NCBI GenBank assembly: GCA_029259185.1 | Contig: JAPDJF010000028.1 | Location: 1-16,213 of the forward strand | From: Hadesarchaea archaeon | Lineage (GTDB): Archaea; Hadarchaeota; Hadarchaeia; Hadarchaeales; WYZ-LMO6 | Direction of reading: 5' to 3' | Length of the DNA stretch: 16,213 nt | Shown here: one piece after another, positions 5,089-13,887 of the stretch | Layout of the letters: each line of letters opens with the position of its first letter | Numbering within the stretch: position 1 is the stretch's first letter | Position numbers and translations under genes: made by a program | Notes under the pieces: model-generated | The model's input: only the letters and a program-made list of their open reading frames with translations | Databases searched by the model: none | What the model was told of the DNA's origin: nothing

Positions 5089-5368
5089 GTCAACTACCCC
5101 TCCCTAAAGGAAGGGACTTGCAGGTGATCATGGTGTTCGAAACTCATCGCCCTCAGACCCGCACGGGGCCGGTTGACGGCGGCCGGTCTAGAGCGAGCCT
5201 GCTCGACTCCTCCGCCCGCTTCGGTCCGGAGCACTATTCGGGCTTCCGGACATCCGGACCACATCCAAGCCGTTTCTCCCCGGGGGATTGCCTTTCAGAG
5301 ATCGCACGCGCATTTTCACCTAAAAATCTCCCAGCCCTTTCGGACGGGGTCTCCTCGCGGTGGTCGAG
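5089..5368 (-). mobile_element. Non-autonomous miniature IS200/IS605 (IS1341/TnpB-derived, PATE-like) element retaining an omegaRNA-like scaffold
   Basis: Minus strand: TAM TCAT (5372-5369), guide tetramer GAGA, left-end hairpin CCCCGTCC-GAAA-GGGCTGGG (5349-5330), relic SD+ATG (AGGTGAAA-ATG 5313, MRVRSLK), GCCGTCAACCGGCC ('AAVNRP'), guide CAAG, right-end hairpin TCCCTTCC-TTTA-GGGAGGGG, terminus TAGTTGAC at 5089. No target-site duplication. Confidence 0.85.
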
Positions 5369-5797
5369 ATGAGCTGGGGTTCGCTCTATTTTGGATTCTT
5401 AGGCGTAGTCTTGTTGGTATTTGGGGCCATCGAGTTCATTACTGGTCTTCCAGGTATTAGAGAGGTCAGCGACCTAGGGTGGCTATCCATTCCTGGAGAT
5501 GCGTGGCGAGGAATCATCACTTTTTTTTCGGGGCTCTTCGTCTTCATGGGTTCAGTTAAATTTCAGAACATCCACGGGCTTGGGGAAGTGGTGCTGGGAC
5601 TCATAATGCTATGGATCGTGGCTGGGTGTGATATCTTCTCGACGGTACTTGAGTCGATTCCTGGAGGGGAGGAAGGCTGGTTCAACACGTTTCAAGGATT
5701 TGTGAGCTCATACACCCCACCTTATGCACCGGAGCTTTGGTTGTTTCCATTTTCGGTTGTGGTGATTTACTTTATACGAAAGAGAGGTGGTGGATAG
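5369..5797 (+). CDS. Hypothetical membrane protein (about 4 TM segments) in the feoB operon
   Basis: Hydrophobic segments LYFGFLGVVLLVFGAIEFI, IITFFSGLFVFMG, VVLGLIMLWIVAG and LWLFPFSVVVIYFI. ATG 5369 is preferred because the GTG at 5360 lies inside the inserted element. Confidence 0.8.
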   Translation: MSWGSLYFGFLGVVLLVFGAIEFITGLPGIREVSDLGWLSIPGDAWRGIITFFSGLFVFMGSVKFQNIHGLGEVVLGLIMLWIVAGCDIFSTVLESIPGGEEGWFNTFQGFVSSYTPPYAPELWLFPFSVVVIYFIRKRGGG

Positions 5798-6126: not shown

Positions 6127-6221
6127 GGCCAGGGTGGTGTAGCGGTTAGCATCCGGGACTGTGGATCCCGTGACCCGGGTTCGAATTCGAGTTCATCTCG
6201 TCGAGATTCCCGGCCCTGGCC
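6127..6221 (+). tRNA. tRNA-His(GUG) with encoded G-1 and a 22-nt intron in the T-loop (59/60; 6186-6207)
   Basis: Acceptor GCCAGGG/CCCTGGC, anticodon arm CGGGA-CTGTGGA-TCCCG, G6127 opposite discriminator C6221. The T-stem CCGGG/CCCGG encloses 29 nt that fold into a BHB-like motif; removing 6186-6207 restores TTCGAAT. CCA is not encoded. Confidence 0.92.
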
Positions 6222-6270: not shown

Positions 6271-6468
6271 GTGTTCCATTCTAAACTATAATTGAGCTCC
6301 ACACCAAGGGCATGAAGGCGTCGACCAGGAGTATGAGCCTCTTTGGCTCGCGATGAGAGGTCGTACTCGTGGTGTGGATCCAAGATGTGGATCCGAATAA
6401 CCCAGGCTACTGGAGAGCTCGGGTCCGAGAAAGGTCCGATGCTTCCACGCCGAACTTGCGGCCACTTA

Positions 6469-7949
<1,481 letters not shown>

Positions 7950-7984: not shown

Positions 7985-8056
7985 GGGCCCGTAGCTCAGT
8001 GGTAGAGCGTCGGCTTTGCAAGCCGAAGGTCCCGGGTTCGAGTCCCGGCGGGTCCA
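7985..8056 (+). tRNA. tRNA-Ala(UGC) in the 16S-23S spacer
   Basis: Acceptor GGGCCCG/CGGGTCC with G3:U70, anticodon arm TCGGC-TTTGCAA-GCCGA, T-arm CCGGG-TTCGAGT-CCCGG. Confidence 0.98.
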
Positions 8057-10308
8057 CATCAATATGCAACGTGCGGAGTCGGAGGAGTTCCGTGCGTGAA
8101 GGGCGAATAAGTTCATTAGATGACGCCACGCATAGGTTCCCAACGCCGGCCAAGTGGAAACGCTAAGCCACTTGGTGGATGGCTGGGCTCGAGCGCCGAG
8201 GAAGGTCGTGGCAAGCTGCGAAAAGCTCGGGCGAGGCGCATGCAGCCTTAGAACCCGAGATTACCGAATGGGAGTCCTGGAGGAGGGTTTGAACCTCCTC
8301 CGCTCGCGGCAGCGAGCGGGAACCCCGGGAAGTGAAACATCTCAGTACCGGGAGGAAGAGAAAGCAAATGCGATGCCCTCAGTAACGGCGAGTGAAGAGG
8401 GCACAGGGCAAACCGAACCTGGTGGCGAAAGTCACTGGGGATGTGGGGTTGTAGGACTTCCCCCAATTCCTCGCGCGGGAAGCCGAAGTTGCCTGGAATG
8501 GCACGCCGCAGAGGGTGAAAGCCCCGTAGGCGTAACTGCGCAGGATACGAGGGGAAGGATCCTGAGTAGGATGCCTTGGGATTGGCGTCCGAAGCTGGGA
8601 GTCACCAACTCCCAACCCTAAATACGTCTCGAGACCGATAGCGAACGCAGTACCGCGAGGGAAAGCTGAAAAGCACCCCGGAAGGGGGGTGAAAAGAGCC
8701 TGAAACCAAGTGGTGACAGTAGGATACGGCTCGAAAGAGATGATACCTCCCGAAGGAACCCGTCGTGAGACGGTAGTACGAGGGAGGGGAATCGGGGTCG
8801 TATCGTCCGTCTGGAATCACGGGCCAGGGAGTTCATCGTCGTGGCGAGGTTAAGGGGATAAACCCCGGAGCCTCAGCGAAAGCGAAGGTCCGCAACCCGA
8901 AAGGGTGAGGGACTGGGTGTTAAGAGCGCCCGGAGTCACGGCGATGAGACCCGAAACCGGGCGATCTAGTCCGGGGCAGGCTGAAGTCCCGTTTGGGGAT
9001 GGAGGGCCGAACCGGTCTTGACGTGCAATTCGGTCGGATGACCTCGGGCTAGTGGCGAAAGACCCATCAAGCCCGGTGATAGCTGGTTCCTCCCGAAGCT
9101 GGCCGCAGTCAGGCCCGGCGCGAGGTGGCTGGCCGTGTAGAGCACCGATTGCGGGGTGACAGGGGGAAACCCTTGCCCTCGCTGTCGAACTCCGAAGCGA
9201 CCAGCGCCGTAGACCGCCGGAGACGGGGTGCGGGGGGTAAGCTCCCGCTCCGAGAGGGGAACAACCCAGACCGAGGTTAAGGCCCCTAAATGCTGGCTAA
9301 GTGCAGAAATCCAAAGGGCGTCTCCACCCTAAGACAGCGGGGAGGTAGGCTCAGAAGCAGCCACCCTTTAAACAACGCGTAAAAGCGGACCCGTCGAGGG
9401 TGGGGGCACCGAAGATGGACGGGGCTCAAGCCAGCTGCCGAGACCTCGGGGCAGGCGAAGTATAGTAGCCTGATCCGGTAGGGAGGCGTCCCGCGTGGGC
9501 AGAAGCTCGGCCGTGAGGTCGAGTGGACCGCGTGGGAATGAGGATCCTGGTGGTAGTAACAGCGAAGTGGGGTGAGAATCCCCACCACCGAAGGGGCTCG
9601 GGTTCCTCGGCAACGATCGTCAGCCGAGGGTTAGTCGGTCCTGAGGTGGCCCTCAACCAGAGGCCACCGAAAGGGAATCCGGTTAATATTCCGGAACCAC
9701 CTAGGTACCAGCGGCAACGCAGGCTGGACTCCTGACATCTCGGGGTAGACCGAGTGAGGTCGTCGCCTCATCTAACCACTGAAGTCCGGGGAGTTCCGTA
9801 ATGGAGAGAACCGGATGAAAGTGGGAATGGCCTGCCGTTAGGTGGGTTCGGTTGATCCCTGGGATCCGTGAAAAGGGAGTCCGGAAATGGGATCCTAGGT
9901 GTCCGTACCTAGATCCGACACAGGTGCCCCTAGGTGAAAAGCCTAAGGTGTGTCGGGATACACCAGGTCAGGGAATTCGGCAAGTTAGCCCCGTAACTTC
10001 GGGAGAAGGGGTGCCTGCCTTGCGGAAGGCAGGTCGCAGTGACAAGGGGGGACCGACTGTTTAATAAAAACGTAGGTTCCCGCAAGCCCGAAAGGGTGTG
10101 TACGGGAGCTGAATTCTGCCTACAGGCGGTACGTGAAAGCAGGGTTCAACCTGCCGAAGCGCCGCCAATGGGCGGGGGTAACTATAACCCTCGAGTGAGG
10201 GGGTTGTAAAACCCGGCTGTATGCGGGGAAGATCAGAAAAGCGGACTACCCTCTTGGGTAACAAGGTCCGCATTTGATGAGGTCGACCCGCAGGAAACCC
10301 CTGAGAGT

Positions 10309-10323
10309 CAGAAAGCATAAGTA
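10309..10323 (+). promoter_or_regulatory. Putative intron-internal promoter for the homing endonuclease
   Basis: CAGAAAG-CATAAGTA resembles the rRNA promoter GAAAAGT-CTTAAGTA. Standard spacing predicts a TSS at C/G 10345/10346, 8 nt before GTG 10354. Confidence 0.5.
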
Positions 10324-10353
10324 TTTGACAAAGTCCCTCTTAAACGGGGATCG

Positions 10354-10995
10354 GTGTCGCTGGCTTACTTGGTGGGCTTGATGCTTGGCGATGGCGGCGT
10401 TTACGGGGACACGTATACGGTTTTCTGTAGGGACAAGGATGAGGAGTTCGTACGTCGCTGTGCAGAGACGGTCAAAAAAGTGTTCGGAGTTCAACCAAGA
10501 GTCCACAGAGCGGCCCCTAATTGCTGGGCCGTTAGCACGAACCGCCGGGATATCCACCGCTTCATGTGCAAACTCGGATACCCCAAAGGACGGAAGTTGA
10601 CCACAGCAGGAATCCCCTTGACTTTCCTGAAGACTGAGAGTGATAAGATCGATGTTATCAAAGGGCTGTTCGATGCGGAGGGGTACTGTGGGGTCGATAG
10701 ACAGAAGCACGGGGACAAGGTTTACCAATACCCGTACGTCGGCATCGACATGATAGCAAAGCCCATGATCAAAGAGGTGAAAAAAATTCTCGGAGAATTG
10801 GGCATCGGTAGTACCCTTCAAGTCAAGAAGCCCCACGCTTGGGGGAAGCATCCCCAGTGGTCCATAATCATCAAAGGAAAAGAGAGAGTAGCGAAGTTTG
10901 AGAAAATCGTGGGGTTCAGACATCCGGTGAAGTCAGCACGTTTGAGAGAACTCGTTGAGGGGGGATCCCCAGAGACCATACGCCGGGCACCCTGA
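10354..10995 (+). CDS. Double-motif LAGLIDADG homing endonuclease (intron-encoded)
   Basis: Motif 1 LAYLVGLMLGDG, motif 2 VIKGLFDAEG. The C-terminal GSPETIRRAP is read through the ribozyme P7/P3' core, with the stop in P8. Confidence 0.93.
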   Translation: MSLAYLVGLMLGDGGVYGDTYTVFCRDKDEEFVRRCAETVKKVFGVQPRVHRAAPNCWAVSTNRRDIHRFMCKLGYPKGRKLTTAGIPLTFLKTESDKIDVIKGLFDAEGYCGVDRQKHGDKVYQYPYVGIDMIAKPMIKEVKKILGELGIGSTLQVKKPHAWGKHPQWSIIIKGKERVAKFEKIVGFRHPVKSARLRELVEGGSPETIRRAP

Positions 10996-11058
10996 TTAGA
11001 AGGGTGATGATATGGTCCACCCTTTTCGATAGGGAAAAGGGCGCTTAAGGTAGCGTAA

Positions 11059-11090
<32 letters not shown>

Positions 11091-11677
11091 GGAATCAACG
11101 AGTCCCCCACTGTCCCGACCTGGAACCCGGTGAACCCGCTTGCCGGCGAACATGCCGGGGTCCCCCGAAGGGAAACGAAGACCCCGTGGACCTTTACTGC
11201 AGCCTGTCGCTGAAACGCGGTTGCGGGTGCAGAGGGTAGGCGGGAGCCTGCGAAGCCGGATCTCCGGGTCCGGTGGAGGCATCGATGTAACACCGCCCAC
11301 CCCTAACCACGTTTCTAACCCCGCGAGGGGAACACCGACAGGTGGGCAGTTTCGCTGGGGCGGCAGCCCCTCGAAAAGATATCGAGGGGGTCCAAAGGTC
11401 GGCTTAGGTGGGTCAGAACTCCGCCGGTAAGGACAAGGCCAAAAGCCGGCCTGACTGCGTGCTCACTACCAAGGCACGCAGGGGCGAAAGCCGGGCCTAG
11501 CGAACCCAGATGTCCCTCTTGGTGAGGGCTCTGGATGACAGAAAAGGTACCCCGGGGATAACAGAGTGGTCGCGGGCGAGAGTCCATATCGACCCCGCGG
11601 TTTGCTACCTCGATGTCGGTTCTTCCTATCCTGGTCGTGCATAGGCGGCCAAGGGTCGGGTTGTTCGCCCATCAAAA

Positions 11678-11719
<42 letters not shown>

Positions 11720-12063
11720 TGCTATCTTTCGGGGGTGTTCGGTGTCTGAGGGGAAGGTGTCCCTAGTACGAGAGGAACGGGACGCCGGCGCCTCTGGTGT
11801 ACCGGTTGTCCGACAGGGCATCGCCGGGTAGCCACGCGCCAGTCGATAAGGCCTGAAAGCATCTAAGGCCGAAGCGACTCCCGAAAATAGACACCGTGTC
11901 CGGCTGCCTCGCAAGGGGTGGTCGGCGGAGAGCTGGGGCTAGAAGACCCCGTTGATAGGCCGGGGGTGTACGCGCGGAGCTTCGGCGACGCGTTCAGCCC
12001 ACCGGTACTAATCGCTCGAACTCCATTTGGCTGGTTGGGAACCTGTGTGTGGCCTTTTTTTAA

Positions 12064-12229
12064 CTGATGCGGGTGGGAAGTTCCCCTTCCGAAAGGGAGG
12101 GGGTGAGAGCCCGCAAATCTTTGTCGGGGACGCCTCTGGGACAGAGGTCTCCGTAAAGGGTCCCGTGCTGGAGTTCCAAGCCGTGAAGGCGCGGTCGGAG
12201 GAGCTCCTTCCGGAGGGAGGGTAGTTCAC
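12064..12229 (+). mobile_element. Second non-autonomous miniature IS200/IS605 element with a TnpB omegaRNA-like scaffold, in the 23S trailer
   Basis: Preceded by TTTAA (TAM). Guide AAGT plus left-end hairpin CCCCTTCC-GAAA-GGGAGGGG (12083-12102), stems GGGGAC/GTCTCC and CCGTGCT/GGCGCGG, internal GTGAA (12183-12187) complementary to the terminal TTCAC. Ends in a hairpin plus GGGTAGTTCAC, a typical TnpB-element right end. Confidence 0.78.
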
Positions 12230-12331
12230 AGATTTCCAGATAGTGCGTTGCTGTCACTCCAGAGCTCTAGGCGCATCGTTCGCGCTTCGTAAACCGGTGG
12301 CTTGTTTGGTCGGCCAGATGGTGAAAAATTT

Positions 12332-12529
12332 CTACTTTTTTTGAGGCTGGAGCTTGATGAGGGAAGTGAGATACCCGGCTACCCGATTCTTCAGCGGTTT
12401 ACTCTCAACTTGGAGGAGTTCATCCACTACCTGGCGGTTGTGCTCGAAATCGGTTGAAAACTTATCGGGATAAAGTTCGAGCAGTTGTCTAGCCGCCCGC
12501 TTTATGTAAACCTGTCTCACCTTTCCCAT
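12332..12529 (-). CDS. rps17e: 30S ribosomal protein S17e
   Basis: MGKVRQVYIKRAARQLLELYPDKFSTDFEHNRQVV...SKPLKNRVAGYLT. ATG 12529 follows GGGGTGA. Confidence 0.96.
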   Translation of the reverse strand: MGKVRQVYIKRAARQLLELYPDKFSTDFEHNRQVVDELLQVESKPLKNRVAGYLTSLIKLQPQKK

Positions 12530-12531
12530 CT

Positions 12532-13887
12532 TCACCCCTCGAGCATGCTCGCTATTCTCAGCGCTAAACCTGCAACTTCGGTTGGAGTGGTCCCCAGTAG
12601 TCTTATCATCGCTTCCTTGCCATGTGCCCCTCTATCCACTACTACTCTCGGAACTCTGTTCATTCTCCTCACGATCGATTCGATTCCCCATACCATCGTC
12701 TTGGTTCCTTTTGGTTCTTTTGCTCGATCGAACTCTCCTATCTCCAGACCCAACTTTCTGCACACCTTGAGGATCCCATTTGAAAAGCGGATGTTCATCC
12801 CCGCCCGTATGGTGGGGTCAAAGCGCATCGCGGTGAGTACCATCCTAGCTACATGCTTTGAACCTCCAAGCTTTGGGAAGCCTGTGAGATGTGGAGACCC
12901 TGAGACCTTCACGATGCGTCCGGACAGTCCAACGACCTCGGAGGGGTCGGTGGAGTTGGGAAGGGCCATAACCACGTTTGTTCCAACCTCTGGCAGGAGG
13001 GCGGAGAACTTCGGGTCGGAGACGAGGAGCTCGGCGGCCTTCCACACCTCTTCCACAGCATTTCCTCTCTCGGCCTCCCTTATCAAGGATCCGAGTGGAT
13101 CGAGTGTGGGGAGGCCCTTCCCTACATTGATTCGATTCGCTATCGATACTCTGACGAACTCTATAGCCCTTGCCACGGACTCGCAGAGCTCGTTTCCCTT
13201 CGCGAGTTCAGCGGTGATAGCGGCCGAGAGGGAACATCCGGTTCCATGCACGGGTCCGGATCGCACGCGTGGGTTCTTGAACACTTCAAATCCCTTCTTC
13301 GTGTAGAGGACGTCGACCACTTGTGATCCTTCCAAGTGTCCGCCCTTTACGAGCACAGCTTTAGCACCCAGCTTTCCTATCCTCTCAGCGGATTTCTTCA
13401 TCTCCTGAACCGATCGTATTTTGAGGTTGGAGAGCTTCTCGGCCTCTGGCACATTAGGAGTTACTAGCTCGGCGAAACTTATCATCGCTCTCAGAGAGGC
13501 TTCCGCACTTTCGTTCAGGAGCGGGGCCCCGGTTGAGGCCATCATAACGGGGTCGATTACCAATCGCAGACCGTGTTCGCGAGCTTTTGTGTGAACGGCT
13601 TCTATTACCCCCTTGCTGTAGAGCATGCCCGTTTTGGCCCACCCGATCTCGAAATCTTCAAGCACAGCATCCATCTGCTCTTCCACGAATTCCGGGGGTA
13701 CCTCCAGGATGGATTTTACACCCTTCGTGTTCTGAGCAGTGAGCGCCGTTAGCACGGAGGTCCCATGCACTCCTAGAGCGCGGAAGGTTTGAAGATCGAT
13801 TTGGATACCAGCACCTCCACCCGAATCAGATCCGGCTATGGTGAGTGCGGATACAATTTTTCTGGATTTTGGAGGATCTTTGGTCAC
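12532..13887 (-). CDS. thiDN: Bifunctional HMP/HMP-P kinase-thiamine phosphate synthase ThiDN
   Basis: ThiD part ALTIAGSDSGGGAGIQ, LTAQNT, VIDPVM, VTPNVPEA, VLVKGGH, HGTGCSLSAAI. ThiN part LLPEVGTN, GGSKHVAR, FDRAKEP, DRGAHGKEAMI. Confidence 0.94.
   Translation of the reverse strand: MTKDPPKSRKIVSALTIAGSDSGGGAGIQIDLQTFRALGVHGTSVLTALTAQNTKGVKSILEVPPEFVEEQMDAVLEDFEIGWAKTGMLYSKGVIEAVHTKAREHGLRLVIDPVMMASTGAPLLNESAEASLRAMISFAELVTPNVPEAEKLSNLKIRSVQEMKKSAERIGKLGAKAVLVKGGHLEGSQVVDVLYTKKGFEVFKNPRVRSGPVHGTGCSLSAAITAELAKGNELCESVARAIEFVRVSIANRINVGKGLPTLDPLGSLIREAERGNAVEEVWKAAELLVSDPKFSALLPEVGTNVVMALPNSTDPSEVVGLSGRIVKVSGSPHLTGFPKLGGSKHVARMVLTAMRFDPTIRAGMNIRFSNGILKVCRKLGLEIGEFDRAKEPKGTKTMVWGIESIVRRMNRVPRVVVDRGAHGKEAMIRLLGTTPTEVAGLALRIASMLEG

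What the first reader, a model, noticed from the sequence alone, without database searches (positions are those of the whole stretch)
12054..12290. Second orphan omegaRNA mini-element lodged in the rRNA operon trailer, in sense with rRNA transcription
Seen: a 166-bp element starts about 10 nt after the 23S processing stem, directly behind TTTAA. Its left-end guide AAGT predicts a TTxA target. It has GTGAA/TTCAC pseudoknot potential and ends in GGGTAGTTCAC. Sequence beyond it can still pair with the operon's spacers: GTGCGTTGC 12243-12251 with GCAACGTGC 8066-8074, and CTCCAG 12257-12262 with CTGGAG 6410-6415. This suggests the element lies inside the pre-rRNA 3' ETS. Its TAM and terminal motif differ from the 5089 element, so it belongs to a different family. 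Inference: the guide RNA could be expressed from the strong rRNA promoter and released by rRNA processing. Its guide (AGATTTCCAGATAGTG) would target element-free rRNA operons. Caveats: the right-end hairpin and guide (GGAG rather than GAAG) look slightly degenerate, and the preceding T-tract could terminate transcription.
Basis: partly seen in the sequence, partly recalled or inferred. Interest (0 to 1): 0.78.

Follow-up and report, generated by a model that had tools for sequence, protein, structure and literature searches.

The report
Guide-RNA mini-transposon behind rRNA terminator
A 166-bp gene-less mini-transposon of the IS200/IS605 kind, carrying what looks like a TnpB guide-RNA scaffold, sits just behind the terminator of an archaeal ribosomal RNA operon; it is a real mobile element but an ordinary member of a known class.

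Summary
Window 12064-12229 (166 bp, + strand) is one of 11 copies in this 1.27-Mb archaeal genome (9 full-length, 2 cut by contig ends). In the 9 full copies it starts directly after TTTAA (8 of 9; one ATTAA). In the 10 copies that reach the right end it ends in TAGTTCAC (8 of 10, two variants). Flanks are unrelated and there is no target duplication.

It is a non-autonomous IS200/IS605-type element (a PATE/MITE). Its left-end architecture, TTTAA target and right-end terminus recur in tnpB- and tnpA-bearing elements of the same genome. Its right ~110 nt look like an omegaRNA scaffold, including pseudoknot potential between the last 5 nt and an upstream loop.

Its closest high-quality relative has the empty site: 23S stem, T-tract, TTTAA, then rps17e at once.

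The reading [quoted passage not shown] is not supported:
- The element lies behind a T7 tract, and 12 of 13 relatives have a T-run there.
- The proposed pairings with the spacers are at chance level.
- The DNA beyond the element is a relic of a tnpB gene on the other strand.

This copy is a deletion form that lacks the TATA-like segment of the long form. No RNA data exist. PATEs that encode omegaRNAs are already described, so this is a new member of a known kind.

The parts
8125..8158 (+). 5' strand of the 23S processing stem
   Evidence: Co-fold of 8058-8160 with 12016-12062
12022..12053 (+). 3' strand of the 23S processing stem (23S ends at 12029)
12055..12061 (+). T7 run, the likely native terminator of the rRNA operon
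   Evidence: Sequence. 12 of 13 relatives have a run of 5 or more T within 90 nt after the 23S end
12059..12063 (+). TTTAA target / transposon-adjacent motif, made partly of the terminator's last Ts
   Evidence: 8 of the 9 full G000 copies follow TTTAA, one ATTAA. 18 of 25 distinct junctions have TTAA
12064..12229 (+). The 166-bp non-autonomous IS200/IS605-type element, short form
   Evidence: 11 copies in the genome with common ends and unrelated flanks. Empty site in G001
12064..12114 (+). Left end. Outer stem GCGGG 12069-12073 / CCCGC 12110-12114 encloses the hairpin CCCCTTCC-GAAA-GGGAGGGG at 12083-12102
   Evidence: Read. The same architecture stands at left ends of tnpB- and tnpA-bearing elements
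12120..12229 (+). omegaRNA-like scaffold, conserved block of about 110 nt
   Evidence: Model R1, 114 bits here. Weak end-to-end matches to right ends behind tnpB (19.4 bits, rough E 0.005). Identity 0.91-0.95 among copies against 0.81 for the left end
12183..12187 (+). GTGAA, candidate 5' strand of the pseudoknot
12204..12221 (+). Right-end subterminal hairpin CTCCTTCC-GGA-GGGAGGG, slightly degenerate in this copy
   Evidence: pair 94-113: UA 20, UG 11, CG 7
12225..12229 (+). TTCAC, last 5 nt of the element and candidate 3' strand of the pseudoknot
12230..12245 (+). Flank that would serve as the 16-nt guide (AGATTTCCAGATAGTG). It is unique in the genome
   Evidence: 1 match at 0-1 mismatches, 2 at 2
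12244..12333 (-). About 30-codon relic of a TnpB-like gene (type of G000 C11:25505-26953)
   Evidence: tblastn E 7e-6. The matching DNA of four relatives lies inside homologues that align over 310 aa or more
12332..12535 (-). rps17e, convergent with the rRNA operon
   Evidence: Pfam Ribosomal_S17e, E 1.5e-16. Same synteny in G001 and G002

Best explanation
Window 12064-12229 is a non-autonomous IS200/IS605-family mini-transposon (a palindrome-associated transposable element, PATE/MITE).

Inferred mechanism: a Y1 transposase (TnpA) supplied in trans inserted it as single-stranded DNA 3' of a TTTAA. That TTTAA happens to be formed by the last Ts of the rRNA operon's T-tract terminator plus AA.

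Anatomy:
- The left ~50 nt and the last ~30 nt carry the subterminal hairpins that a TnpA would act on.
- The right ~110 nt are a TnpB guide-RNA (omegaRNA) scaffold. Its 3' end is the element boundary, so the next 16 nt of host DNA become the guide.

If it is transcribed and bound by a compatible TnpB made elsewhere, that RNA would direct cleavage of the scarless empty site (TTTAA + AGATTTCCAGATAGTG) and so favour retention of the element. [quoted passage not shown]

This copy belongs to a short form that has lost the ~27-nt TATA-like segment of the long form. Any transcript would therefore have to come from read-through of the T7 terminator. The most likely state is a passive or weakly expressed passenger beside the rRNA operon, not a part of the pre-rRNA.

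Shown: repeat family, ends, target, empty site, and kinship of the ends with tnpA/tnpB elements. Inferred: omegaRNA function, promoter, and trans-acting TnpB/TnpA.
For: Repeat family and ends:
- 11 copies in the own genome, 9 full-length and 2 cut by contig ends (C27, C5:54632-54748). The 9 full copies follow TTTAA (8) or ATTAA (1). The 10 copies that reach the right end finish in TAGTTCAC (8), TAGCTCAC (C27) or TAGTTCAG (C33). Flanks are unrelated and no duplicated target is seen in the 9 full copies.
- Target census: TTAA at 18 of 25 distinct junctions from genomes and metagenomes, TTCA at 3, others at 4.

Empty site:
- In G001 (same family, 4 contigs) the order is 23S stem, CCTATTTTTAAC, then about 20 nt later the rps17e end. 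G002 has a ~70-nt spacer.

Kinship with coding elements:
- The left-end design (TTTAA | outer stem, inner CCCTTCC-GNRA-GGGAGGG hairpin, GATGAGAG) stands at the left ends of elements carrying a small ORF plus tnpB.
- It also stands in a decayed LE-tnpA-tnpB-RE element at C9:42470-41487, which ends in GGGTAGTTCAC.
- The terminus GGGGTAGTT[CG]AC occurs 33 times in the genome, including directly behind tnpB at C34:1128 and C19:21551.
- An HMM of the family finds the M2 mini-element at E 9.6e-6. M2-type sequence follows the tnpB remnant in C9.
- Covariance model R1 aligns end to end, stopping exactly at the right-end boundary, to the tnpB-linked ends (19.4 bits, rough E 0.005).

Pseudoknot:
- GTGAA lies 47-49 nt before the TTCAC terminus in 7 of the 10 family copies that one search scanned (including the window), and at 58 nt in one (C1). 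It lies 62-64 nt before the end in the second mini-element family.
- All 7 long elements of the TTGAC-ending 5089 type scanned have GTCAA 83-89 nt before the end.
- The G011 copy has GTGAG with CTTAT, which keeps all five pairs.
- In ISDra2 omegaRNA the pseudoknot is formed by nt -6 to -2 with -102 to -106 (PMC10097598, passages read).

Conservation:
- The block outside the search pattern is 0.91-0.95 identical among copies, against 0.81 for the left end.

Prior knowledge:
- PATEs that 'often encode omegaRNAs' to be used in trans are stated by Meers et al. (bioRxiv 10.1101/2023.03.14.532601, passages read).
Against: - No tnpB lies next to any copy of this family. That holds for 11 copies in G000, 7 stretches from named MAGs and 26 metagenome contigs. 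The cognate nuclease is therefore unknown.
- The only near-full TnpB of the matching end type (C34, 373 aa) has only positions 1-33 of 60 of the TNB zinc-ribbon profile.
- No demonstrably intact tnpA is in the assembly. Of 4 Y1 matches, one has a stop inside, one is a 76-aa piece, and two are cut by contig ends.
- Covariation within the family is not significant: 41 to 92 of 500 shuffles reach the observed measures, and only 2 pairs change on both sides.
- Rfam gives no match up to E 10 in 12000-12360.
- The match of R1 to tnpB-linked ends is weak and is driven largely by the last ~30 nt. The protein-level trace of a tnpB 3' end is not significant.
- The six long-form copies in G000 lack the 5' arm of the inner left hairpin yet sit at six different loci, which the simple TnpA-hairpin picture does not explain.
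- No RNA data exist.
Confidence: 0.72

Rival explanations
1. First reader's reading. The element is part of the pre-rRNA 3' external spacer. Its omegaRNA is made in quantity from the rRNA promoter, freed by rRNA processing, and guards the rRNA locus against loss of the element.
For: - Sense orientation, 10 nt behind the processing stem.
- This copy lacks the TATA-like segment of the long form, so it could only be expressed by read-through.
- The rRNA operon is the only one in the assembly and is presumably very strongly transcribed (the strength is general knowledge).
Against: - A T7 run stands between the stem and the element, and 12 of 13 relatives have a T-run of 5 or more in that place.
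[quoted passage not shown] U-tract strength correlates with termination efficacy (PMC8716108). For both papers only the abstract starts in the search listing were seen.
- The spacer pairings are at chance level.
- The downstream 'trailer' is a tnpB gene relic.
- Of the two other short-form copies, one has a co-oriented upstream ORF and one has a divergent neighbour, so there is no pattern.
Confidence: 0.1
2. A mobile element, but with no RNA function. The conserved right half only holds DNA signals for TnpA, or is conserved because the copies are young. This copy is an inert scar.
For: - Copies are 76-97% alike to the window copy (short form 93-97%, long form 76-79%), and the long forms are 95-98% alike among themselves, so conservation may reflect recent spread.
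- No significant covariation, no Rfam hit, no adjacent tnpB.
- The sample was selected by an exact 28-nt core, which biases conservation upward.
Against: - The right half is more conserved than the left end, even outside the selected core (0.91-0.95 against 0.81).
- A TATA-like box stands about 25 nt before the conserved block in long forms from several genomes. The archaeal TATA position is recalled, not tested.
- The terminal 5 nt and an upstream loop change together between families.
Confidence: 0.15
3. A conserved, single-copy native trailer of the rRNA operon rather than an insertion.
For: None found.
Against: - 11 copies in the genome.
- Absent from the 23S trailers of all 13 relatives compared.
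- Found in 2 of 65 genomes of the class.
Confidence: 0.01

Closest known systems
PATEs (palindrome-associated transposable elements) of IS200/IS605 that encode omegaRNAs, as noted for Geobacillus stearothermophilus by Meers et al. 2023 (bioRxiv 10.1101/2023.03.14.532601; passages read)
   Same: - Gene-less, with the left and right ends of a tnpB/tnpA element family.
- Inserted behind a short target motif without duplication.
- The right end carries the guide-RNA scaffold, which a TnpB encoded elsewhere must use.
   Different: - Archaeal host, in the same order as a MAG titled Hadesarchaea.
- TTTAA target.
- The long form seems to carry its own TATA-like box in front of the scaffold.
- No cognate tnpB with this scaffold was found anywhere searched.
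- The paper's Extended Data and supplements on PATEs could not be seen.
ISDra2 TnpB omegaRNA (Nakagawa et al. 2023, PMC10097598; passages read)
   Same: - Scaffold of about 110-116 nt that ends at the transposon boundary, with a 16-nt guide from the flank.
- The last few scaffold nucleotides pair with an upstream segment to form a pseudoknot.
   Different: - No sequence similarity was tested, since no ISDra2 sequence was in hand.
- The upstream partner lies 47 nt before the end here, against about 100 nt in ISDra2.
- Not overlapped by a tnpB reading frame.
PATEs/MITEs of IS1341-type elements in Haloquadratum walsbyi (PMC3119063; seen only in the search listing)
   Same: Archaeal gene-less derivatives of IS200/IS605-type elements.
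   Different: Different phylum and sequences. The text was not read, so no finer comparison is made.
The tnpB-bearing elements of the same genome: C34:2-1128, C19:21551-22349, and the decayed tnpA+tnpB element at C9:41487-42470
   Same: - TTTAA target and left-end architecture.
- Right-end hairpin followed by TAGTTCAC.
   Different: - The interior of the scaffold is only weakly alike (19.4 bits).
- Those elements carry coding sequence.

Membership tests
IS200/IS605 non-autonomous element (PATE/MITE) | Several copies with identical ends and unrelated flanks | tested here: met
   11 copies in G000: 9 with both ends, 2 cut by contig ends. More copies in three other MAGs and 26 metagenome contigs.
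IS200/IS605 non-autonomous element (PATE/MITE) | Insertion 3' of a fixed tetra- or pentanucleotide, with no target-site duplication and no terminal inverted repeats | tested here: met
   TTAA at 18 of 25 junctions and TTCA at 3. Right flanks differ and none of the 9 full G000 copies repeats TTTAA.
IS200/IS605 non-autonomous element (PATE/MITE) | Subterminal hairpins of like sequence at both ends, in the same orientation | tested here: met
   Left CCCCTTCC-GAAA-GGGAGGGG and right CTCCTTCC-GTGA-GGGAGGGG. One right-hairpin pair shows UA 20 / UG 11 / CG 7. Against: the six long-form G000 copies lack the 5' arm of the left inner hairpin.
IS200/IS605 non-autonomous element (PATE/MITE) | Empty site in relatives | tested here: met
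   G001: T-tract, TTTAA, then rps17e at once. No element in 13 of 13 relatives' trailers.
IS200/IS605 non-autonomous element (PATE/MITE) | A Y1 transposase with matching ends in the genome to move it | tested here: inconclusive
   4 PF01797 matches. The one at C9 sits in an element with matching ends but has a stop inside. One is a fragment and two are cut by contig ends.
TnpB omegaRNA | Encoded at the right end, with its 3' end at the transposon boundary and its guide from the flank | tested here: met
   The conserved block 12120-12229 ends at the boundary. R1 matches to tnpB-linked elements end exactly at their boundaries.
TnpB omegaRNA | Overlaps or follows the 3' end of a tnpB gene | tested here: not met
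   No tnpB beside any copy. Met only for related end types (C34, C19, C9).
TnpB omegaRNA | Pseudoknot between the last scaffold nucleotides and an upstream segment | tested here: inconclusive
   95% of cells paired, with one pair changed on both sides. Between families, GTGAA/TTCAC against GTCAA/TTGAC. Not significant against shuffles.
TnpB omegaRNA | Secondary structure supported by covariation, or a match to a curated RNA family | tested here: not met
   41-92 of 500 shuffles reach the observed values. No Rfam match up to E 10.
TnpB omegaRNA | Transcribed, bound by TnpB, and directs cleavage next to the target motif | not testable with these tools
   No run on record as RNA holds the stretch. 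This is told only as a blank.
Pre-rRNA 3' external transcribed spacer | Lies upstream of the operon's terminator and is conserved or paired with other spacers | tested here: not met
   It lies behind the T7 run, and 12 of 13 relatives have a T-run there. Pairings are at chance level.

The most novel reading that the evidence does not exclude
The short form of this mini-element has given up its own promoter and lives on leak-through of the rRNA operon terminator. The strongest promoter of the cell would then supply a trans-acting TnpB with a guide against the empty rRNA-trailer site. That would make the single rRNA operon a safe harbour from which the element cannot be lost. More widely, the long form would be a self-contained mobile guide-RNA gene (TATA box plus scaffold) that spreads between distant vent archaea without its nuclease.
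Probability: 0.1. Interest if true: 0.6.

Novelty: new member of a known kind. Interest (0 to 1): 0.3.

Why it matters
- It documents a compact family of gene-less IS200/IS605 derivatives in uncultured hydrothermal-vent archaea, with clean ends, target motif and an empty site.
- Its right half is a candidate trans-used guide RNA. This is a useful, small test case for how TnpB guide RNAs travel without their nuclease.
- If a working TnpB partner is found, it could be a source of a thermophilic TTTAA-specific scaffold.
- For the rRNA operon itself it matters little. The insertion sits behind the terminator and leaves the processing stem intact.

Tried and rejected
- Rfam at a loose threshold on 12000-12360: nothing up to E 10.
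- Protein-level trace of a tnpB 3' end inside the element: the long form reads ...GEAPSVREG* against ...KQEAPCESWG* at the C34 TnpB end, but tblastn gives nothing significant. Dropped as evidence.
- Covariation within the family: the sequences are too alike to be significant.
- Model R1 over the 65 genomes of the class: only G000 and G011 match, and all matches are in mini-element form. No parent tnpB element was found.
- Two weaker R1 matches in G066 turned out to be cut by contig ends.
- Guide off-targets: no other site in the genome with 0-1 mismatches. The single 2-mismatch site lacks TTTAA.
- Public runs: no RNA holder listed, so there is no evidence on expression either way.
- Contigs of four DNA runs laid on 11800-12600:
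  - The right junction is bridged in X1, X3, X4 and X5 (records 7, 16, 24, 31).
  - The left junction is covered only by a 98-nt contig (X1, X3, X4) with 25 nt inside the element. That is under the tool's 31-letter rule, so it is not counted as bridged.
  - No joint for an empty allele was listed. Contigs drop rare variants, so this says nothing on absence.
I only note that the observed targets fit TTxA.
- The archaeal TATA position (about 25 nt before the start) is recalled, not tested.
- Supplementary files of the papers were closed. Meers et al.'s Extended Data on PATEs may hold closer parallels.
- Rows dropped:
  - One search's regular expression missed the C1 copy (its junction TTTTAA is seen).
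  - One search kept 16 distinct full-length sequences out of the copies in hand, because its pattern missed some.
  - One search scanned only ends lying 150 nt or more from a contig start.

Full report
Setting.
The window is contig C25 of a 1.27-Mb, 54-contig archaeal genome. It lies in the same order as G011. G011's hit places equal those of G067, the genome of a locus whose record is titled Hadesarchaea archaeon. Rfam places 16S at 6469-7949, tRNA-Ala at 7985-8056 and 23S at 8151-12029. This is the only rRNA operon in the assembly. Downstream, on the minus strand, lie rps17e (12332-12535), a ThiD/ThiN gene and a radical-SAM gene.

The observation.
- The 23S processing stem pairs 8125-8158 with 12022-12053.
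- Then come C, a T7 run (12055-12061) and AA, so TTTAA is 12059-12063.
- The element is 12064-12229, 166 bp. It ends GGGTAGTTCAC, and the flank is AGATTTCCAGATAGTG.

The element is a repeat. BLAST and an HMM find 11 copies in the genome:
- Three are of a 166-171-bp short form: the window, C3:56765-56935 (97% identical) and C19:5835-6008 (93%).
- Six are of a ~195-bp long form with an extra ~27 nt (TTCATATATACACTTTTGGTGACATAT).
- Two are cut by contig ends.
- In the alignment with flanks, the 9 full copies begin right after TTTAA (8) or ATTAA (1). The 10 copies that reach the right end finish in TAGTTCAC (8), TAGCTCAC (C27) or TAGTTCAG (C33). Flanks are unrelated on both sides and no target is duplicated.

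What kind of element.
- The genome is full of IS200/IS605 debris: 23 matches to the TnpB zinc-ribbon profile and 4 to the Y1 transposase profile.
- The terminus GGGGTAGTT[CG]AC, preceded by a hairpin, occurs 33 times. Some of these lie directly behind tnpB reading frames (C34:2-1128, C19:21551).
- The left-end design is: TTTAA, an outer stem, an inner hairpin CCCTTCC-GNRA-GGGAGGG, then GATGAGAG. It stands at a dozen left ends that are followed by a small ORF and tnpB.
- At C9:42470-41487 a decayed but complete LE-tnpA-tnpB-RE element has the same TTTAA, the same left-end design and the terminus GGGTAGTTCAC.
- A second mini-element family (about 230 bp, 5 copies) links the two. The HMM of the window's family finds it at E 9.6e-6, and its scaffold follows the tnpB remnant in C9.
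- The left and right hairpins have the same sequence in the same orientation, as in IS200/IS605, and are not inverted repeats.
- The element is therefore a PATE/MITE of this family.

Empty site and distribution.
- The 23S trailers of 13 relatives lack the element.
- In G001 (same family, 4 contigs) the stem is followed by CCTATTTTTAAC and, about 20 nt later, by the end of rps17e. That is the same synteny, with TTTAA present and unoccupied. G002 has a ~70-nt spacer.
- By DNA and by covariance model, the family is found in 2 of the 65 genomes searched at order and at class level, the same 65 (G000 and G011).
- It is also in two ~2-Mb MAGs titled Thermococci archaeon that are not among those 65, and in 26 metagenome contigs. 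All are in gene-less form.
- Across 25 distinct junctions the 4 nt before the element are TTAA in 18, TTCA in 3 and other in 4.

Is the right half an omegaRNA?
In favour:
- It occupies the place where omegaRNAs are encoded and ends at the boundary.
- Model R1, built from the 110-nt block, aligns end to end with the tnpB-linked right ends, the 5089 element and the second mini-element, each time stopping exactly at the boundary. The scores are weak, 19.4 to 11.9 bits.
- The last 5 nt (TTCAC) can pair with GTGAA 47-49 nt before the end in 7 of the 10 family copies that one search scanned, and 62-64 nt before the end in the second family. All 7 long elements of the TTGAC-ending 5089 type scanned have GTCAA 83-89 nt before the end.
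- The G011 copy has GTGAG with CTTAT, which keeps all five pairs.
- In the ISDra2 structure the pseudoknot is made by nt -6 to -2 with -102 to -106 (PMC10097598), so the geometry is the known one.
- Long forms from several genomes carry ATTATATATATA about 25 nt before the conserved block. From recalled knowledge of archaeal promoters, this is where a TATA box would stand.
- The block is more conserved (0.91-0.95 outside the search pattern) than the left end (0.81). That sample was picked by an exact core match.

Against:
- Covariation is not significant.
- There is no Rfam match.
- No tnpB lies beside any copy.
- The one near-full TnpB of the matching end type has only half of its zinc-ribbon profile.
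- No RNA run is available.

Is it part of the pre-rRNA?
- The T7 run lies between the stem and the element. 12 of 13 relatives have a run of five or more T within 90 nt after the 23S end, most of them right behind the stem. The ancestral operon therefore ends there.
- Abstracts seen in a search listing report efficient archaeal termination at five to six T (PMC2253867) and a correlation of U-tract with termination efficacy (PMC8716108).
- The DNA beyond the element is not trailer. Window 12244-12333 on the minus strand encodes ...GRPNKPPVYEARTMRLELWSDSNA. It matches residues 116-147 of a 483-aa TnpB-like protein of the same genome (E 7e-6).
- The 80-85% identical DNA of four relatives lies inside homologues that align over 310 aa or more.
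- The spacer between the rRNA operon and rps17e has thus been hit at least twice by IS200/IS605-type elements.

How it most likely works.
- TnpA in trans placed the element behind a TTTAA that the terminator happened to offer.
- The short form arose from the long form by loss of the TATA-like segment and moved afterwards: three loci share the deletion.
- At this locus any scaffold-plus-guide RNA needs read-through of the T7 run.
- If it is made and loaded on a compatible TnpB, it would cut the empty site TTTAA+AGATTTCCAGATAGTG, which is unique in the genome. This follows the model of Meers et al..
- I hold the element's identity as near certain, the omegaRNA nature as likely, and rRNA-driven expression as unlikely but open.

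Novelty.
Meers et al. already state that PATEs often encode omegaRNAs for use in trans, and archaeal PATEs are on record (PMC3119063, listing only). This is a new family in a little-studied archaeal lineage, placed beside an rRNA terminator. It is a new member of a known kind.

Noticed in passing
window 8151-12029, ORF 10354-10995 (+): The 23S gene spans 3879 bases against a 2987-position model. It holds an ORF with a LAGLIDADG_3 domain (E 2.5e-16), probably an intron with a homing endonuclease.
   Followed up: no
window 6127-6221 (+): A tRNA-like gene just upstream of the rRNA operon, with anticodon loop CUGUGGA (GUG, His) and a 24-nt insertion in the T-loop. ARAGORN misses it, and Rfam gives only a sub-threshold tRNA-clan match (22.1 bits, E 0.02). 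It may be a tRNA with a non-canonical intron.
   Followed up: partly
window 5089-5372 (-): The other mini-element, ending GGGGTAGTTGAC at 5089. It has three near-full copies in the genome, several partial copies and many short end matches. Its left end is different (TCATCTCGACCACCGCGAGG...) and no TTTAA stands before it. Its terminal TTGAC is matched by GTCAA 83-89 nt before the end.
   Followed up: partly
window 12244-12333 (-): About 30-codon relic of a TnpB-like gene wedged between the mini-element and the rps17e stop. Full homologues at 66-75% amino-acid identity are in four relatives.
   Followed up: yes
G000 C5, C20, C26, C35, C43 at 116-127; C1:127300-127311; C4:57060-57071; C31:10882-10893: Eight contigs carry the same right-end motif about 116-127 nt from a contig end, so the assembly breaks at a high-copy element of this superfamily. 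Copy numbers given here are therefore lower bounds.
   Followed up: no
G000 C5:15500-15800, C4:56700-56844, C7:45304-45450 and others: The tnpB elements of this group carry a small ORF (MTKYTITVEDRLGEEFKRTITKDKTINEAIAELMKKEV...) between the left end and tnpB, behind a TATA-like CATATATAG. Its function was not examined.
   Followed up: no
L046 = G000 C34:2-1120 (+): The only near-full TnpB with the TAGTTCAC-type end matches only positions 1-33 of 60 of the TNB zinc-ribbon profile (TSQNIPEGFDRD in place of the cysteine pairs). It is either decayed or a natural ribbon-less form.
   Followed up: partly
L061, L063-L067 (MAGs titled Thermococci archaeon): The same mini-element family occurs in two ~2-Mb MAGs that are not among the 65 genomes of the window's class. 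This suggests spread between distant archaea of hydrothermal settings.
   Followed up: partly
G000 C5:33926-34116, C36:6800-6988, C33:6628-6822, C1:29796-29988, C13:32832-33024, C37:4314-4492: All six long-form copies lack the 5' arm of the inner left-end hairpin (a 7-nt gap), yet they sit at six different loci. Either the outer stem is the real TnpA signal or they spread in another way.
   Followed up: no
L061, L074, L092: One and the same insertion site in related populations reads TTGTTA, TTGTTCA and TTGTTAA before the element. Some non-TTAA 'targets' may therefore be later mutations.
   Followed up: no
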